Source: Dehalococcoidia bacterium (lineage in GTDB: Bacteria; Chloroflexota; Dehalococcoidia; UBA2979). Taken from it: a DNA stretch of 64,000 nucleotides. The DNA is taken from positions 160,001-224,000 of the forward strand of contig OZ244720.1 in the NCBI GenBank assembly GCA_965219085.1, written 5' to 3'. Under the pieces are notes generated by a model that ran no database searches, was not told the origin of the DNA, and was given only the letters and a program-made list of their open reading frames with translations. The position numbers were made by a program, and so were the translations under genes. Every line of letters starts with the position of its first letter. Position 1 is the first letter of the stretch. Shown here in pieces: positions 5,205 through 8,296 of this stretch.

Positions 5205-6026
5205 GTGGCGGAAGACCGATGGCTGCCACTGAGCGTCCGGAACGATCCGGAACGTGCGAGGGCGTTTGATGTTCTTCATAAGGGTGTGCCGGACTGGCTG
5301 CGAGGCGAATTCCTTAGGTGGATCGTCGATACCAGTCACCATCCTAGCTGGCGAGACCAGATGGATTCGCGGATCCGGGAGCCGATGCAGCTTGCCCTGC
5401 GTACGGTCATCCCCTCGTACTTCAGTCAGATCTCGGTCGAGTTGTATCTCGATGTGATCGACTACCTCCTCCACCATGCACGCGTCCCTGAGTACCGCAT
5501 TGGGGATCTCGAGCGCGTACTCTCGGACGGGGGCTCGGCGTGGCGCGCGACACCCCGAGGTCTAGAAGGCCGAGTCGACGAGACGCTGCAGGGCATCGCC
5601 GAGTCGGTCTTCGCGACGGACAGCCGCCCGGCGGACTACTTGAGGAGCGCGTGGCACAAGGCGTGGGGCCGAGAGCCCGATCCCACCGGTGCCTACCGTG
5701 AGGCTGTCCGTGCCGTCGAAGCGGCCTTCGCGCCCACTGTCTCGCCGAATAATGGACGGCCGACGCTCGGTACCATCATTGCCGATATCAACAACAAGCC
5801 GTCCAAGTTCTCTGTAAGGCTTCAGGCGGACACGCCCAACGCGAACGTCGAGCGGATCGTCGGCATGCTGCGGATGCTCTGGAAGTCGCAGCTCGACCGC
5901 CATGGGACTGCGGATGAATCTGTCCCGCTCAACGTGACCCTCGACGAGGCGCGGGACGCCCTCGCGCTCGCGACCACGCTCGTGCACCTCGCGCAGCAAG
6001 GCGGTTTCTCGGCGAACGGGAACTGA
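5205..6026 (+). CDS. Hypothetical protein, possibly with an abortive-infection/HEPN-like C-terminal domain
   Basis: GTG start 14 nt after the guaB stop. C-terminus DPTGAYREAVRAVEAA...TLG...QLDRHG...EARDALALATTLV resembles Abi_C/AbiJ-like domains (recognised by eye). Confidence 0.55.
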   Translation: MAEDRWLPLSVRNDPERARAFDVLHKGVPDWLRGEFLRWIVDTSHHPSWRDQMDSRIREPMQLALRTVIPSYFSQISVELYLDVIDYLLHHARVPEYRIGDLERVLSDGGSAWRATPRGLEGRVDETLQGIAESVFATDSRPADYLRSAWHKAWGREPDPTGAYREAVRAVEAAFAPTVSPNNGRPTLGTIIADINNKPSKFSVRLQADTPNANVERIVGMLRMLWKSQLDRHGTADESVPLNVTLDEARDALALATTLVHLAQQGGFSANGN

Positions 6027-6291
6027 GCGCTACCCGAGCAAGCTGACCACGGCCGTCACCAGCGCAGGTGTCGCTCCTAGGCGGGAAGTCCGAGGCGTCA
6101 AAACTGCACACCTGCTATACTTGTTGTGTCAAATACATGACGGATAGCAGGAAGTGTTCCCATTCCGGTAGAGAACCACGCTGACCCCACGCCCGATACG
6201 TGCGACATCTGCATGTATGCGGTCGAGCACCCGGGGACGGATCTTCGCTATGAGCGCGGGCTCGTCAATCTGGCAGGGGATCTCTAATGGG

Positions 6292-6490
6292 GCCCGACCA
6301 GCGGCCAGAGGTTCTCTGGCAGACTGGTTCTGGACCCTGCCAGCCGGTGAGCTCTCAGCTGATCCCTGCGGCTTCTGGACCGCTTCACGAAGACCGAGCC
6401 CCTGCTGGTATTCCGGGTTGTTCTGCAGCACTCATGGGGTGTCGTGCCATCGAGCACTGATCCATTAGGCCGTCGCAGGAACCAACCCGC
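6292..6490 (+). ncRNA. IS110 bridge RNA with target-binding and donor-binding loops
   Basis: TGGGGTGTC (6435-6443) and CCATTAG (6462-6468) match the donor junction. CACGAAGA (6386-6393) and CAGCTGATCCCT (6356-6367) match the target site. Each guide pair flanks a 4-bp hairpin within a closing stem. Ends approximate. Confidence 0.8.
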
Positions 6491-6535
6491 CGGGTCGCAC
6501 CGAGCAGCGCGAAGCGGGAGAGGAACTGAAACACG

Positions 6536-7759
6536 ATGGCCTTGTACCTGGGCGATGACTGGTCCGAAGACCACCACGACGTCCATCTCATGAACGACGC
6601 GGGCGAGCGGCTCGCCGCCCGGCGTCTGCCCGAAGGGGTGGAGGGCATCACTGCCCTGCACGGACTGGTCGCCGGGTACGCCTCAGGGCCGGGTGAGGTG
6701 ATCGTCGGCATCGAGACGGACCGCGGCCCCTGGGTCGCGGCACTGCTCGCGGCCGGCTACCACGTCTACGCCATCAACCCGCGCTCGGCGTCGCGTTACC
6801 GCGACCGCCACCACGTCGGCGGCGCCAAGTCCGACGCCGGCGACGCGAAGCTGCTCGCCGACCTCGTCCGCACCGACCGGCACAACCACCGGGAGGTCGC
6901 CGGCGACAGCGACGAAGCCGCCGCGGTGCGCATCCTCGCCCGCGCCCACCAGCAGTTGATCTGGGACCGCGTCCGCCAGACCAACCGGCTGCGCAACGCG
7001 CTCAGGGAGTACTTTCCGGGTGCGCTGGAGGCCTTCCCCGACCTCGCGCACGACGACGCGGTGGGCGTGCTGGCGACAGCGCCTGGCCCGCGCGAGGCGG
7101 CGCGGCTGAGCATCACCCAGATCCGCTCCGCGCTGCGCCGCGGCGGCCGCCGGCGCAACATCGAGCGGCGCGCCGCCGAGGTCCGCGACGCGCTGCGCTC
7201 ACCGCAGCTCGAGGCTCCGCCCGCGGTGAGCAAGGCATTCGCCGCGAGCACCAGTGCGGCAATGAGGGTGATCGGCGAGATCAACCGTCAGATCAAGGAG
7301 CTCGAGGCCGAGCTCGCGAGCCATTTTGAGCAGCACCCGGACGCCGGTATCTACCGTTCCCTGCCCGGTCTCGGCGTGGTCCTCGGCGCCCGGGTGCTTG
7401 GCGAGTTCGGGGATGACCCCGAACGCTACGAGTCGGCGAAGTCCCGCAGGAACTACGCCGGCACGTCGCCGCTGACGGTAGCATCCGGCCGCAAGCACAC
7501 CGTGAAAGCCCGCTTCGTCCGCAACCGGCGCCTCTACGACGCAGTCGACCAGTGGGCGCTGTGCTCCCTGCAGGCCAGCCCCGGCTGCCGCGAGTTCTAC
7601 GATCGGCGGCGCGCCGCGGGCGACCTCCACCACCAGGCGCTCCGCGCCCTCGGCAACCGTCTCGTCGGCTACCTACATGGCTGCCTGAAGCGCCGCTTGC
7701 CCTACGACGAGACGACCGCCTGGGGACACCGTTACACCCACGAGGACCTCGCTGCTTGA
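6536..7759 (+). CDS. IS110-family recombinase (DEDD RuvC-like plus Tnp domain)
   Basis: GDDWSEDHHD, GIETD, AINP, AKSDAGDA, SLPGLG, YAGTSP-x-ASG, ALRALGNRL. Confidence 0.96.
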   Translation: MALYLGDDWSEDHHDVHLMNDAGERLAARRLPEGVEGITALHGLVAGYASGPGEVIVGIETDRGPWVAALLAAGYHVYAINPRSASRYRDRHHVGGAKSDAGDAKLLADLVRTDRHNHREVAGDSDEAAAVRILARAHQQLIWDRVRQTNRLRNALREYFPGALEAFPDLAHDDAVGVLATAPGPREAARLSITQIRSALRRGGRRRNIERRAAEVRDALRSPQLEAPPAVSKAFAASTSAAMRVIGEINRQIKELEAELASHFEQHPDAGIYRSLPGLGVVLGARVLGEFGDDPERYESAKSRRNYAGTSPLTVASGRKHTVKARFVRNRRLYDAVDQWALCSLQASPGCREFYDRRRAAGDLHHQALRALGNRLVGYLHGCLKRRLPYDETTAWGHRYTHEDLAA

Positions 7760-7954
7760 CCCCTTAGCGTCCTGGGGTGTCTTCGTGGATGGTCTCGCCA
7801 ATGCTGGAGACGAGCCGCTCATGCTCCGCTCGCTGGCAGTCAGCACTGTGGGCGTCGAGCCCGGCCCCGTGCATCGAATGGAGCCGCGGCACTGGTACTG
7901 GGCCATCTGGCATGAACGCGACGTAGTGTTGTCCCTGCGGAAGAGGTACAGACG

Positions 7955-8296
7955 ATGAAGGCCGGAGCAATGCTACGCGAAGCCTATCAGGAGTACCTCG
8001 AAGGCAAGCGCTCGCTCGATGAGGTGCTCGAGCTCGCAGAGCGGATGCGGGAGTCCATCCACGCCAGCCTGCCTCGTACCCCCGAGCCGACCCCCGAGGA
8101 GATCGAGGCCGAGGAGGCGGAGTGGGCACGGATGCGGGCGCGGAGCCGCGCGGCGCCGCTGTGGAAAGCCTACCAGCGCTACCTTGACGGCGAGTGCTCA
8201 CTCGATGACGTGCTCGACCTCGCCGACCGGATGCGCGCCGAGCGGCTCCGCGCCGACGTTCCCGCCGGCGAGGAGACTCAGCGCGTCTCGAACTGA
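7955..8296 (+). CDS. Hypothetical protein with an internal two-fold helical repeat
   Basis: LREAYQEYLEGKRSLDEVLELAERMR and LWKAYQRYLDGECSLDDVLDLADRMR. GAGG RBS upstream. Confidence 0.7.
   Translation: MKAGAMLREAYQEYLEGKRSLDEVLELAERMRESIHASLPRTPEPTPEEIEAEEAEWARMRARSRAAPLWKAYQRYLDGECSLDDVLDLADRMRAERLRADVPAGEETQRVSN

What the first reader, a model, noticed from the sequence alone, without database searches (positions are those of the whole stretch)
6284..6490. Decodable IS110 bridge RNA: all four guide segments match this element's own donor junction and insertion site
Seen: joining the right end to the left end gives the donor CCTGGGGTGT-CT-AATGGGG. The non-coding left end contains TGGGGTGTC (6435-6443, identical to the left donor) and CCATTAG (6462-6468, reverse complement of CTAATGG). 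They flank hairpin GTGC/GCAC inside stem GGGTTG-TTCTGC / GCAGGA-CAACCC. The empty target reads CAGGGGATCT-CT-TCGTGG. Upstream, CACGAAGA (6386-6393) is the exact reverse complement of TCTTCGTG, and CAGCTGATCCCT (6356-6367) matches CAGGGGATCTCT at 9/12. These flank hairpin GCGG/CCGC inside stem CCAGC..GCTC / GAGC..GCTGG. Established: IS110 recombinases such as IS621 use a bispecific bridge RNA ordered 5' stem, target loop, donor loop. Inference: this is an RNA-guided recombinase ortholog from a high-GC lineage, with 7-8 nt right guides and a mismatch-tolerant left target guide.
Basis: partly seen in the sequence, partly recalled or inferred. Interest (0 to 1): 0.85.

Follow-up and report, generated by a model that had tools for sequence, protein, structure and literature searches.

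The report
IS110 insertion sequence with decodable bridge RNA
This is a 1.5-kb jumping gene of the IS110 family whose non-coding left end encodes a "bridge RNA" that reads both the element's own joined ends and its insertion site, a mechanism known since 2024, so it is a clean new example and not a new kind of system.

Summary
Window 6286-7780, flanked by CT at 6284-85 and 7781-82, is an IS110-group insertion sequence. It has a DEDD+Ser recombinase ORF (6536-7759), a 250-nt left end and a 21-nt right end. There are six near-identical copies in the 3.3-Mb genome.

Three exact matches are individually rare in shuffles (RTG 7 nt, LDG 9 nt, RDG 7 nt). None of 5000 shuffles reached two of them at once.

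The left target guide is not significant for this copy alone (6/9). Its register is fixed by relatives. In 13 independent guide groups, 115 of 156 non-core guide positions match their own flanks; permuted pairings average 54.6, and 0 of 20000 reach 115. An unbiased column-by-position scan picks out exactly the LTG and RTG columns.

The other five copies share one site inside an IS5-like element. That site fits the guides better: RT 5/5, LT 5/7 strict or 7/7 with U·G.

Empty alleles exist in two same-genus genomes and in one public run. Expression and activity were not shown.

Verdict: a new member of a known kind (IS621-type bridge recombinase). Interest is modest.

The parts
6277..6283 (+). 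Left target arm (LT, 7 nt GGGATCT) of this copy's insertion site
   Evidence: Flank diverges from the other copies here. Colinear with the empty orthologous sites. Matches the LTG at 4/7.
6284..6285 (+). Left copy of the CT core dinucleotide
   Evidence: All six copies, and the relatives' loci whose left end could be aligned, begin CT-AATGGG.
6286..6535 (+). Left end (LE), non-coding, 250 nt; encodes the bridge RNA
   Evidence: Lies between the core and the ATG. Conserved scaffold with variable guide columns in 25 sequences.
6297..6328 (+). 5' stem-loop of the bridge RNA
   Evidence: Outer helix 93% of cells paired; inner helix 67% in the MAFFT alignment.
6339..6409 (+). Target-binding loop module (closing stems, internal loop, hairpin)
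   Evidence: Helices 4-6 are 99-100% paired and 6 of their pairs change on both sides. RNAalifold recovers it independently.
6359..6367 (+). Left target guide (LTG) CUGAUCC-CU, same sense as LT+core
   Evidence: Columns 6361-6364 are among the top same-sense covarying columns with target positions -5 to -2. Matches: 6/9 to this site; 7/9 strict or 9/9 with U.G to the IS5-like site.
6386..6392 (+). Right target guide (RTG) CACGA-AG, complementary to core + TCGTG
   Evidence: Columns 6387-6390 are complementary to target +4..+1 in 15-16 of 17 representatives. Exact 7-nt match.
6393..6394 (+). Candidate target-loop handshake guide (AC), complementary to donor GT (7779-7780)
   Evidence: A6393 is invariant and C6394 is C or U in 25 relatives. 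Role inferred from IS621 (PMC11208158, passages read).
6415..6488 (+). Donor-binding loop module (closing stem, internal loop, hairpin 6444-6457)
   Evidence: A closing stem forms in 25 of 25 relatives, with different sequences. The hairpin is invariant.
6435..6443 (+). Left donor guide (LDG) UGGGGUGUC, same sense as the last 8 nt of the right end + C of the core
   Evidence: Exact 9-nt match, reached in 13/5000 shuffles. In three actinomycete lineages the G->A change is matched in both guide and right end.
6462..6468 (+). Right donor guide (RDG) CCAUU-AG, complementary to core + AATGG
   Evidence: Exact 7-nt match, reached in 15/5000 shuffles. Invariant in relatives, as is the LE start.
6469..6469 (+). 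Candidate donor-loop handshake base G, pairs with the target base 5' of the core
   Evidence: G with target C at 42 distinct sites, G with T at 3, and C with G at 2 (one lineage).
6536..7759 (+). Recombinase gene, 407 aa (DEDD RuvC-like domain + Tnp domain with Ser)
   Evidence: D8, E60, D100, D103 and S317-G318 correspond to IS621 D11, E60, D102, D105 and S241-G242; D8, D100, D103 and S317 by the alignment (my count, chain offset 2), E60 by my reading of the IE-TG motif where that alignment has a gap; roles taken. The frame is open in all six copies.
7756..7761 (+). TTGACC, -35-like hexamer overlapping the stop codon
   Evidence: TTGAC is present in 24 of 24 distinct right ends. It lies 17-18 nt before the hexamer TCTAAT, which forms only when the right end, core and left end are joined.
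7760..7780 (+). Right end (RE), 21 nt; its last 8 nt are the left donor arm
7781..7782 (+). Right copy of the CT core
7783..7787 (+). Right target arm (RT) TCGTG
   Evidence: Identical at both site types in this genome. Present in the empty allele of run X5.

Best explanation
Window 6284-7782 is an intact, recently mobile insertion sequence of the IS110 group. It works like IS621.

Proposed mechanism:
1. After excision the right and left ends join at the CT core.
2. The junction places a conserved TTGAC box 17-18 nt upstream of a newly formed TCTAAT hexamer. Transcription is expected to start near 6295.
3. This yields a ~195-nt bridge RNA (about 6295-6490) and probably the recombinase mRNA.
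4. The RNA's first internal loop holds the target guides, LTG 6359-6367 and RTG 6386-6392.
5. Its second loop holds the donor guides, LDG 6435-6443 and RDG 6462-6468.
6. A DEDD/Ser recombinase tetramer uses the RNA to pair the circle junction GGGGTGT-CT-AATGG with a genomic site of the form (C)(Y)GA(Y)CC-CT-TCGTG, and exchanges strands at CT.

Shown here: the element's borders, copies and empty sites; the conserved RNA architecture; guide-flank covariation for the target loop; conserved catalytic residues.

Inferred from IS621: that the RNA is made, that it is bound by the protein, that it directs recombination, and the handshake role of 6393-94 and 6469.
For: Borders and mobility
- There are six copies: three 100% identical over 1500 nt, two at 99.93% and one at 99.87%. 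All start CT-AATGGGG and end at the right-end G-run, TGT and CT.
- Flanks are unrelated between the window copy and the other five.
- The flanks are colinear in the empty orthologous sites of same-genus genomes G007 and G014 (ungapped in G007, short gaps in G014).
- A contig of run X5 skips 6285-7782.

Protein
- Pfam DEDD_Tnp_IS110 and Transposase_20.
- The only PDB hit is the IS621 transposase, E 5.6e-08.
- The DEDD residues and the Ser-Gly are in place.

RNA architecture
- On 25 left ends, 85.4% of cells pair in the named structure, against 31-56% when partners are slid.
- 14 pairs change on both sides, against a shuffled mean of 9.0; 0/500 shuffles reach that.
- The target-loop helices are 99-100% paired.
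- RNAalifold recovers the target module on its own.
- The donor closing stem forms in 25/25.

Guides
- Exact matches are above chance.
- In 43 distinct guide-site pairs the own-flank match averages 5.05/7 (LT) and 4.56/5 (RT). Across guide classes it averages 2.16 and 1.70.
- In 13 independent groups 115/156 positions match. The permuted maximum is 89, and 0/20000 permutations reach 115.
- The unbiased scan ranks 6387-6390 (complementary, +4..+1) and 6361-6364 (same sense, -5..-2) at the top of 1680 column-position pairs.

Second site
- The five other copies sit at CCGACCC-CT-TCGTG inside an IS5-like transposase gene. This gives RT 5/5 and LT 5/7.
- No unoccupied CT site in the genome scores above 10/12.

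Promoter
- TTGAC is conserved in 24/24 distinct right ends.
- No sigma-70-like site was found inside the integrated element.
Against: - No RNA evidence. The two metatranscriptome runs gave contigs only over the ORF, with 0-11 differences each in the 16 listed pieces. Those contigs may come from relatives, or from DNA in the library.
- No circle junction was seen in the four runs laid.
- The junction hexamer TCTAAT has C at the usually invariant second position. The promoter scanner's rule would reject it, and I could not scan the joined sequence.
- The donor loop is almost invariant among relatives. Donor pairing is therefore supported by one matched G->A change in related actinomycete lineages, and otherwise by analogy.
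- The LDG covers only the first core base; the next RNA base is G where the core has T.
- This copy's own LT arm matches the LTG at only 4/7. 114 unoccupied sites in the genome score as well, at 9/12. The guides therefore do not by themselves predict this insertion.
- Counting U.G wobble raises cross-class matches (2.16 to 3.08) as much as own matches (5.05 to 5.91). Wobble tolerance is not shown.
- The MFE of the single sequence is not unusual: z = -1.21.
- No Rfam family matched the left end.
Confidence: 0.9

Rival explanations
1. The element is a true IS110 with a true bridge RNA, but the window copy is a near-cognate 'half-match' insertion. It would have been driven by the right target arm plus the core, with the left arm largely unpaired. 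The cognate site would be the one in the IS5-like element. This refines the best explanation rather than replacing it.
For: - Window site: RT 5/5 and core 2/2, but LT 4/7. IS5-like site: RT 5/5 and LT 5/7, or 7/7 with U.G.
- Five of six copies are at the IS5-like site.
- A 2026 preprint reports that IS621 can insert where only one arm plus the core match (10.64898/2026.08.31.748434; abstract and section 8 read).
Against: - 4/7 is above the cross-class mean of 2.16, so the left arm is not unpaired.
- There is one site only, with no kinetics.
- In the IS621 re-analysis RT-only events could not be scored.
Confidence: 0.45
2. The conserved left-end structure is a leader that regulates recombinase expression or binds the protein. 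Site choice would be made by the protein, and the guide-like matches would be by-products of a conserved target preference.
For: - The donor-loop strings and both element ends are nearly invariant, so they could equally be protein-binding repeats.
- No RNA was detected.
Against: - The target-loop columns change together with the flanks in 13 guide groups, in the exact parallel (LTG) and antiparallel (RTG) registers expected for pairing. A protein-read site would not track RNA-loop sequence.
- The recombinase is homologous to IS621, for which RNA guidance was shown experimentally (PMC11208160 and PMC11208158; passages read).
Confidence: 0.04
3. The copies are inactive relics spread by duplication of larger segments or by movement of the IS5-like carrier. 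On this view the guides say nothing about present activity.
For: - Copies c4, c5 and c6 share the same further nested element. Their right flanks are 99.8-99.9% identical over 2.2 kb, so they are probably one event multiplied.
- Two copies carry an extra G inside the left donor arm.
Against: - Copies c1, c2 and c3 are 100% identical over 1500 nt. Yet the c2 and c3 flanks are only 96.4% (249 nt) and 93.7% (683 nt) identical. That argues for separate recent insertions.
- The window site is occupied here and empty in a run from another study.
- All six ORFs are open.
Confidence: 0.05

Closest known systems
IS621 of Escherichia coli (IS110 group) and its 177-nt bridge RNA (Durrant et al. 2024, PMC11208160; Hiraizumi et al. 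2024, PMC11208158)
   Same: - DEDD RuvC-like domain plus a Tnp domain with Ser-Gly.
- CT core on both sides.
- Long left end and short right end.
- RNA order: 5' stem-loop, target loop, donor loop.
- LTG of 7+2 nt, same sense as LT+core; RTG complementary to core+RT.
- Handshake-type bases directly 3' of the core-pairing bases.
- A promoter split across the RE-LE junction.
   Different: - Protein similarity is low (phmmer E 5.6e-08, two short stretches).
- The RTG is 2+5 nt here and 2+4 nt robustly across the family. IS621 has 4 nt in all.
- The RDG is a contiguous 7 nt. IS621 has a discontiguous 9-on-7 pattern.
- The LDG reaches only the first core base.
- The scaffold is G+C-rich, and the host is an uncultured Dehalococcoidia-type genome.
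Other IS110-group elements with predicted bridge RNAs that insert into repeats or other mobile elements (ISPpu9 and ISPpu10 in REP sequences; search listing only)
   Same: Multi-copy targets: here an IS5-like transposase gene, and in the relatives a repeated G+C-rich sequence.
   Different: Here the target lies inside another IS's coding region. I read no text of those papers beyond the abstracts in the listing.
IS1111 group / seekRNA elements
   Same: The same recombinase family and the same principle of RNA-guided site choice.
   Different: Those carry the RNA in a long right end and have 7-17-bp subterminal inverted repeats (PMC11208160). Here the RNA is in the left end and the right end is 21 nt.

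Membership tests
IS110-group bridge recombinase system (IS621 type) | Recombinase with a DEDD RuvC-like domain and a Tnp domain carrying the catalytic Ser | tested here: met
   Pfam PF01548 at 128.4 bits and PF02371 at 43.5 bits, both over their cut-offs. D8, D100, D103 and S317-G318 align with the IS621 residues. E60 sits in the IE-TG motif, where HMMER's alignment is 2 residues off (my reading).
IS110-group bridge recombinase system (IS621 type) | Element flanked by the same core dinucleotide on both sides, with no long terminal inverted repeats; long LE and short RE | tested here: met
   CT at 6284-85 and 7781-82. LE is 250 nt and RE 21 nt. Simple insertion of body + CT confirmed against empty sites. 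Inverted repeats were not searched for with a tool.
IS110-group bridge recombinase system (IS621 type) | Structured non-coding RNA gene in the LE with a 5' stem-loop and two internal loops, each closed by a hairpin | tested here: met
   Pair counts and compensatory changes, RNAalifold, donor closing stem in 25/25. This shows the structure only; a transcript was not shown.
IS110-group bridge recombinase system (IS621 type) | The first loop's two strands covary with the left and right target flanks, core included | tested here: met
   115/156 matches against a permuted mean of 54.6; 0/20000 permutations reach 115. Diagonal registers in the unbiased scan.
IS110-group bridge recombinase system (IS621 type) | The second loop's two strands match the RE-core and core-LE of the joined ends | tested here: met
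   Exact matches of 9 nt and 7 nt, reached in 13 and 15 of 5000 shuffles. There is almost no variation to test covariation; one matched G->A change was seen.
IS110-group bridge recombinase system (IS621 type) | Promoter reconstituted across the RE-LE junction of the circle | tested here: inconclusive
   TTGAC is in 24/24 distinct right ends, 17-18 nt from the junction hexamer TCTAAT. That hexamer has C at position 2. The joined sequence could not be scanned. No promoter-like site was found in the integrated copy.
IS110-group bridge recombinase system (IS621 type) | The RNA is expressed and bound by the recombinase | not testable with these tools
   The public RNA runs gave no cover of the LE. 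That is no evidence either way.
IS110-group bridge recombinase system (IS621 type) | Reprogramming a loop changes target or donor specificity | not testable with these tools
   Needs a recombination assay.
IS1111 group (seekRNA in the RE) | Long RE holding the RNA, and subterminal inverted repeats of 7-17 bp | tested here: not met
   The RE is 21 nt and the structured RNA lies in the LE.
Any Rfam 15 family | A match of the LE to a curated covariance model | tested here: not met
   No hit on 6286-6535 beyond chance-level rows at E 2 to 5.3. Whether Rfam 15 holds a bridge RNA family I do not know.

The most novel reading that the evidence does not exclude
The genome may record RNA-guided targeting acting in nature in three ways.

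1. A half-match-like insertion: this copy has a perfect right arm and core but only 4/7 in the left arm.
2. A dependence on the CT core. The empty allele in another population reads CC where the occupied allele has CT on both sides, as does the aligned position of the orthologous site in same-genus genome G007.
3. Escape by another mobile element. All 5 IS5-like copies with GACCC-CT-TCGTG are occupied. All 7 with GCTCC-CT-TTGTG are empty and keep an intact transposase gene.

If the third point is causal, one IS family is being culled by another through a bridge RNA and is evolving guide-contact mutations in response.
Probability: 0.3. Interest if true: 0.45.

Novelty: new member of a known kind. 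Interest (0 to 1): 0.3.

Why it matters
It adds a well-resolved natural bridge-recombinase system from an uncultured, G+C-rich lineage. The system comes with a family of relatives whose target guides differ while the scaffold and donor stay fixed, which makes a ready natural series for studying guide rules:
- a 5-nt right arm;
- 0-3 left-arm mismatches at natural sites;
- handshake positions.

It could also be mined as a compact recombinase orthologue.

It shows that a reader can decode such an element from raw sequence. It does not change what is known about how these systems work.

Tried and rejected
- **Rfam scan of 5800-8200 at E<=10.** Nothing for the left end. The only real hit is Ms_AS-4, antisense inside the ORF.

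- **Single-sequence MFE fold.** z = -1.21, so it is uninformative on its own. It fills the guide loops with pairs that relatives do not support.

- **My named donor-loop closing stem on the MAFFT alignment.** It scored only 65% paired because bulges are placed differently in relatives. I rechecked each sequence with duplex folding. The stem formed in 25/25, but its energy beat nearly all shuffles in only some cases (0-31 of 200 shuffles as good in 24 sequences; 87 of 200 for L085).

- **RNAalifold on the donor loop.** It pairs the two donor guides with each other. Those columns are invariant, so the call neither supports nor excludes that pairing.

- **Wobble-tolerant scoring.** The gain is the same for own and foreign flanks, so I make no claim.

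- **Public runs.**
  - RNA runs X21 and X22 held 0.11 and 0.09 of the words. When laid they gave contigs only within 6648-7764, with 0-11 differences each in the 16 listed pieces. There was none on the left end and no circle junction.
  - Absence of cover is not evidence.
  - Two minor joints in DNA runs (6354 to 6425 and 6448 to 6559, sides of 20-21 nt) were not interpreted.

- **Promoter and terminator scan of the integrated element.** 0 and 0.

- **Pfam on the interrupted small ORF's intact orthologue and on the downstream ORF.** No family for the first. For the second, only a sub-threshold HTH_NPRL3 row.

- **Literature search for this lineage.** The 12 papers listed of 631 included none on bridge RNAs in Dehalococcoidia or Chloroflexota. 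That is a listing only, not proof of absence.

- **Supplements of the papers.** Closed and not seen. Durrant et al.'s supplementary tables of orthologues may already list relatives of this element.

- **The search of earlier findings.** Closed.

- **Rows dropped before the counts:**
  - L036 and L050: the left end was not alignable.
  - L071: partial ORF at a contig start.
  - L061: right end not found.
  - L078-L081 (the whole Smaragdicoccus family): flanks cut by contig ends. One search shows what remains of them: L078 LT 8/9, and RT 5/5 to 7/7 where readable.

- **Register shift.** For L057-L059 I shifted the LTG register by one base by hand, after seeing the alignment offset. The representative used in the 13-group test was L057, which scores only 2/7.

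- **Choice of representatives.** The 17 representatives and the 13 groups were chosen by me from 80 loci (the best 80 of 251 relatives).

Full report
**What is there**

Window 6286-7780 is bounded by CT at 6284-85 and 7781-82. It holds one long ORF, 6536-7759, of 407 aa. The ORF matches Pfam DEDD_Tnp_IS110 (E 2.7e-37) and Transposase_20 (E 4.1e-11), both over their curated cut-offs.

The only solved structure found by sequence is the IS621 transposase, 8WT6, at E 5.6e-08. Counting along that alignment, with the chain numbered two ahead of the native protein:
- D8, D100, D103 and S317-G318 fall on IS621 D11, D102, D105 and S241-G242.
- E60 sits in the IE-TG motif, where HMMER's alignment is two residues off.

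The catalytic roles of those IS621 residues are taken from passages of PMC11208158.

**Copies and borders**

The 3.3-Mb single-contig genome holds six copies. Three are 100% identical over 1500 nt, two are 99.93% and one is 99.87%. There is also an 83%-identical truncated relative. All six recombinase frames are open.

Every copy begins CT-AATGGGG and ends at the G-run, TGT and CT. The flanks of the window copy are unrelated to those of the other five.

The five other copies all sit at one position, CCGACCC-CT-TCGTG, of a ~1.3-kb repeated element. Its ORF carries DUF772 and DDE_Tnp_1 domains, making it an IS5-like transposase. The site lies inside that ORF.

Seven further copies of the IS5-like element are empty. 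They read GCTCC-CT-TTGTG at the same place, with exactly one CT.

For the window copy, same-genus genomes G007 and G014 carry the left and right flanks side by side, with no gap at the junction in G007. A contig of run X5, from a different study than X1, joins 6284 to 7783.

So the insertion is the body plus one CT and nothing else. The site is polymorphic between populations.

All are where stated. Results against 5000 dinucleotide shuffles of the left end:

| Guide | Exact match | Shuffles reaching it |
|---|---|---|
| RTG | 7 nt | 150 |
| LDG | 9 nt | 13 |
| RDG | 7 nt | 15 |
| Two or more of the above together | | 0 |

The left target guide fails this test for this copy. Its exact match is only 5 nt, lies elsewhere, and is reached in 1714 shuffles. 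In the proposed register it matches at 6/9.

**Relatives settle the register**

A scan of one genome per species found 251 relatives, of which the best 80 loci were kept. Nearly all are in records titled Dehalococcoidia MAGs (76-86% identity). A few are in actinomycete records at 66-69%.

Their left ends align from the same CT-AATGGG start. The scaffold is strongly conserved and there are two short variable blocks.

Reading those blocks against each locus's own flanks gives the following:
- In 43 distinct guide-site pairs the own flank matches 5.05 of 7 left-arm positions and 4.56 of 5 right-arm positions.
- Between guide classes that differ at 4 or more positions, the figures are 2.16 and 1.70.
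- Collapsed to 13 independent guide groups, 115 of 156 non-core positions match.
- With flanks permuted among groups the mean is 54.6 and the maximum 89. None of 20000 permutations reaches 115.

A scan that assumes no register compared every variable left-end column with every variable flank position, same-sense or complementary, over 17 representatives and 1680 pairs. It put these pairs at the top:
- 6389, 6388 and 6387, complementary to +2, +3 and +4 (16 of 17 each);
- 6390, complementary to +1 (15 of 17);
- 6364, same sense as -2 (15 of 17).

Columns 6362, 6363 and 6361 follow for -4, -3 and -5 (13, 12 and 12 of 17). The background mean is 6.1 with sd 2.2.

These are the antiparallel and parallel diagonals expected for an RTG pairing the top strand and an LTG pairing the bottom strand, as defined for IS621 (PMC11208160; passages read).

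**Structure**

When the partners are slid, 31-56% pair. Fourteen pairs change on both sides, against a shuffled mean of 9.0; 0 of 500 shuffles reach that.

- The three helices of the target module are 99-100% paired and include six pairs with two-sided changes.
- The donor hairpin is invariant.
- RNAalifold recovers the target module unaided.
- The donor closing stem scored poorly on the MAFFT columns (65%). It forms in each of 25 sequences when the arms are folded against each other, with different sequences in different lineages.

**Donor side**

The donor guides and both element ends barely vary, so covariation cannot be tested there.

The one informative change is TGGGATGTC in the loop, together with TGGGATGT-CT at the right end, in three related actinomycete lineages. 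L088 has an unmatched change.

The base after the core-pairing AG of the RDG (6469) is G where the target base before the core is C (42 sites) or T (3 sites). It is C where that base is G (2 sites, one lineage).

A6393-C6394, after the AG of the RTG, are complementary to the donor's GT before the core.

Both observations fit the handshake guides described for IS621. That role is inferred.

**Promoter**

TTGAC overlaps the stop codon and is present in 24 of 24 distinct right ends. It lies 17-18 nt from the hexamer TCTAAT, which exists only when right end, core and left end are joined.

The integrated element has no sigma-70-like site by the scanner. This parallels the split promoter of IS621.

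Two caveats apply. The hexamer has C at its second position, and I could not scan the joined sequence.

**How good are the sites**

Scoring every CT in the genome against the guides (336,593 positions), no unoccupied site exceeds 10 of 12. Eleven score 10 and 114 score 9.

- The IS5-like site scores 10 strict. Both of its left-arm mismatches are U opposite a bottom-strand G.
- The window site scores 9.

So the siblings occupy a top-ranked site and the window copy a second-rank one. A preprint reports that IS621 can insert where only one arm plus the core match. The window copy resembles that, but its left arm still matches above background.

**Independent events**

Copies c2 and c3 are identical to each other. 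Their IS5-like flanks are only 96.4% and 93.7% alike. Copy c2 and the c4 group show the same contrast.

Copies c4, c5 and c6 share a further nested element and near-identical flanks. They are probably one event multiplied.

I count at least four insertion events at two site types. The split of 5 occupied and 7 empty IS5-like copies follows the site variant perfectly. The copies are kin, though, so no statistic is offered.

**Expression**

Not shown. The only RNA runs that share words with the element gave contigs over ORF parts, with 0-11 differences each among the listed pieces.

**Verdict**

This is a correct decoding of an ordinary IS110-group bridge RNA. It is a new member of a known kind.

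Noticed in passing
window 6284-6285 / 7781-7782; run X5; L091: The empty allele of this insertion site in run X5 has one letter C between 6284 and 7783, so it reads CC where the occupied allele has CT on both sides. The aligned position of the orthologous empty site in same-genus genome G007 also reads CC. Either the T arose first and created the core that the element needs, or the core was converted on insertion.
   Followed up: partly
genome copies at C1:1202645-1204145 and C1:3276651-3278151 (L005, L004): Two of the six copies carry an extra G in the G-run of the right end, inside the 8 nt that match the left donor guide. This might weaken donor recognition of those copies.
   Followed up: no
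L097 (G000:C1:875500-877250), ORF 290-1366: The carrier of five copies is an IS5-like element (DUF772 + DDE_Tnp_1, 358-aa ORF). A second, different IS110-family element (368-aa frame) is nested at another position of the same carrier in several copies. The genome has 27 DEDD_Tnp_IS110 matches in all.
   Followed up: partly
window 7360-7441, minus strand: The Rfam family Ms_AS-4 (RF02464, 'Actinobacteria sRNA') matches at 63.9 bits, above its gathering score of 50. The match is antisense to the recombinase's Tnp-domain coding region, and many of the aligned pairs are non-canonical. It looks like conserved coding sequence of IS110 transposases rather than a structured RNA.
   Followed up: no
window ~6150-6283 and 7783-7957, plus strand; intact orthologue L091 1626-1868: The element interrupts a small conserved plus-strand ORF. 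The orthologue is 80 aa and has no Pfam family. Its stop overlaps the start of the next ORF (window 7955-8296; 113 aa, internally repeated, no family over cut-off).
   Followed up: partly
loci L014-L020, L031-L052, L063-L077 (flanks): Most relatives sit in one repeated G+C-rich target...CCCCTCACCCCCGCC-CT-CTCCCGC..AGGGGA, found many times per genome. It looks like a REP-type palindromic repeat. Their guides read CGCC-CU and GGGAG-AG accordingly.
   Followed up: no
G000:C1:893433-894622 (L007): An 83%-identical relative of the recombinase gene, without the left end, abuts a copy of the IS5-like element.
   Followed up: no
window 6356-6358 and the loop 6355-6367: The 5' strand of this element's target loop is two bases longer than in all 24 aligned relatives. 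Whether they pair with the target is unknown.
   Followed up: no
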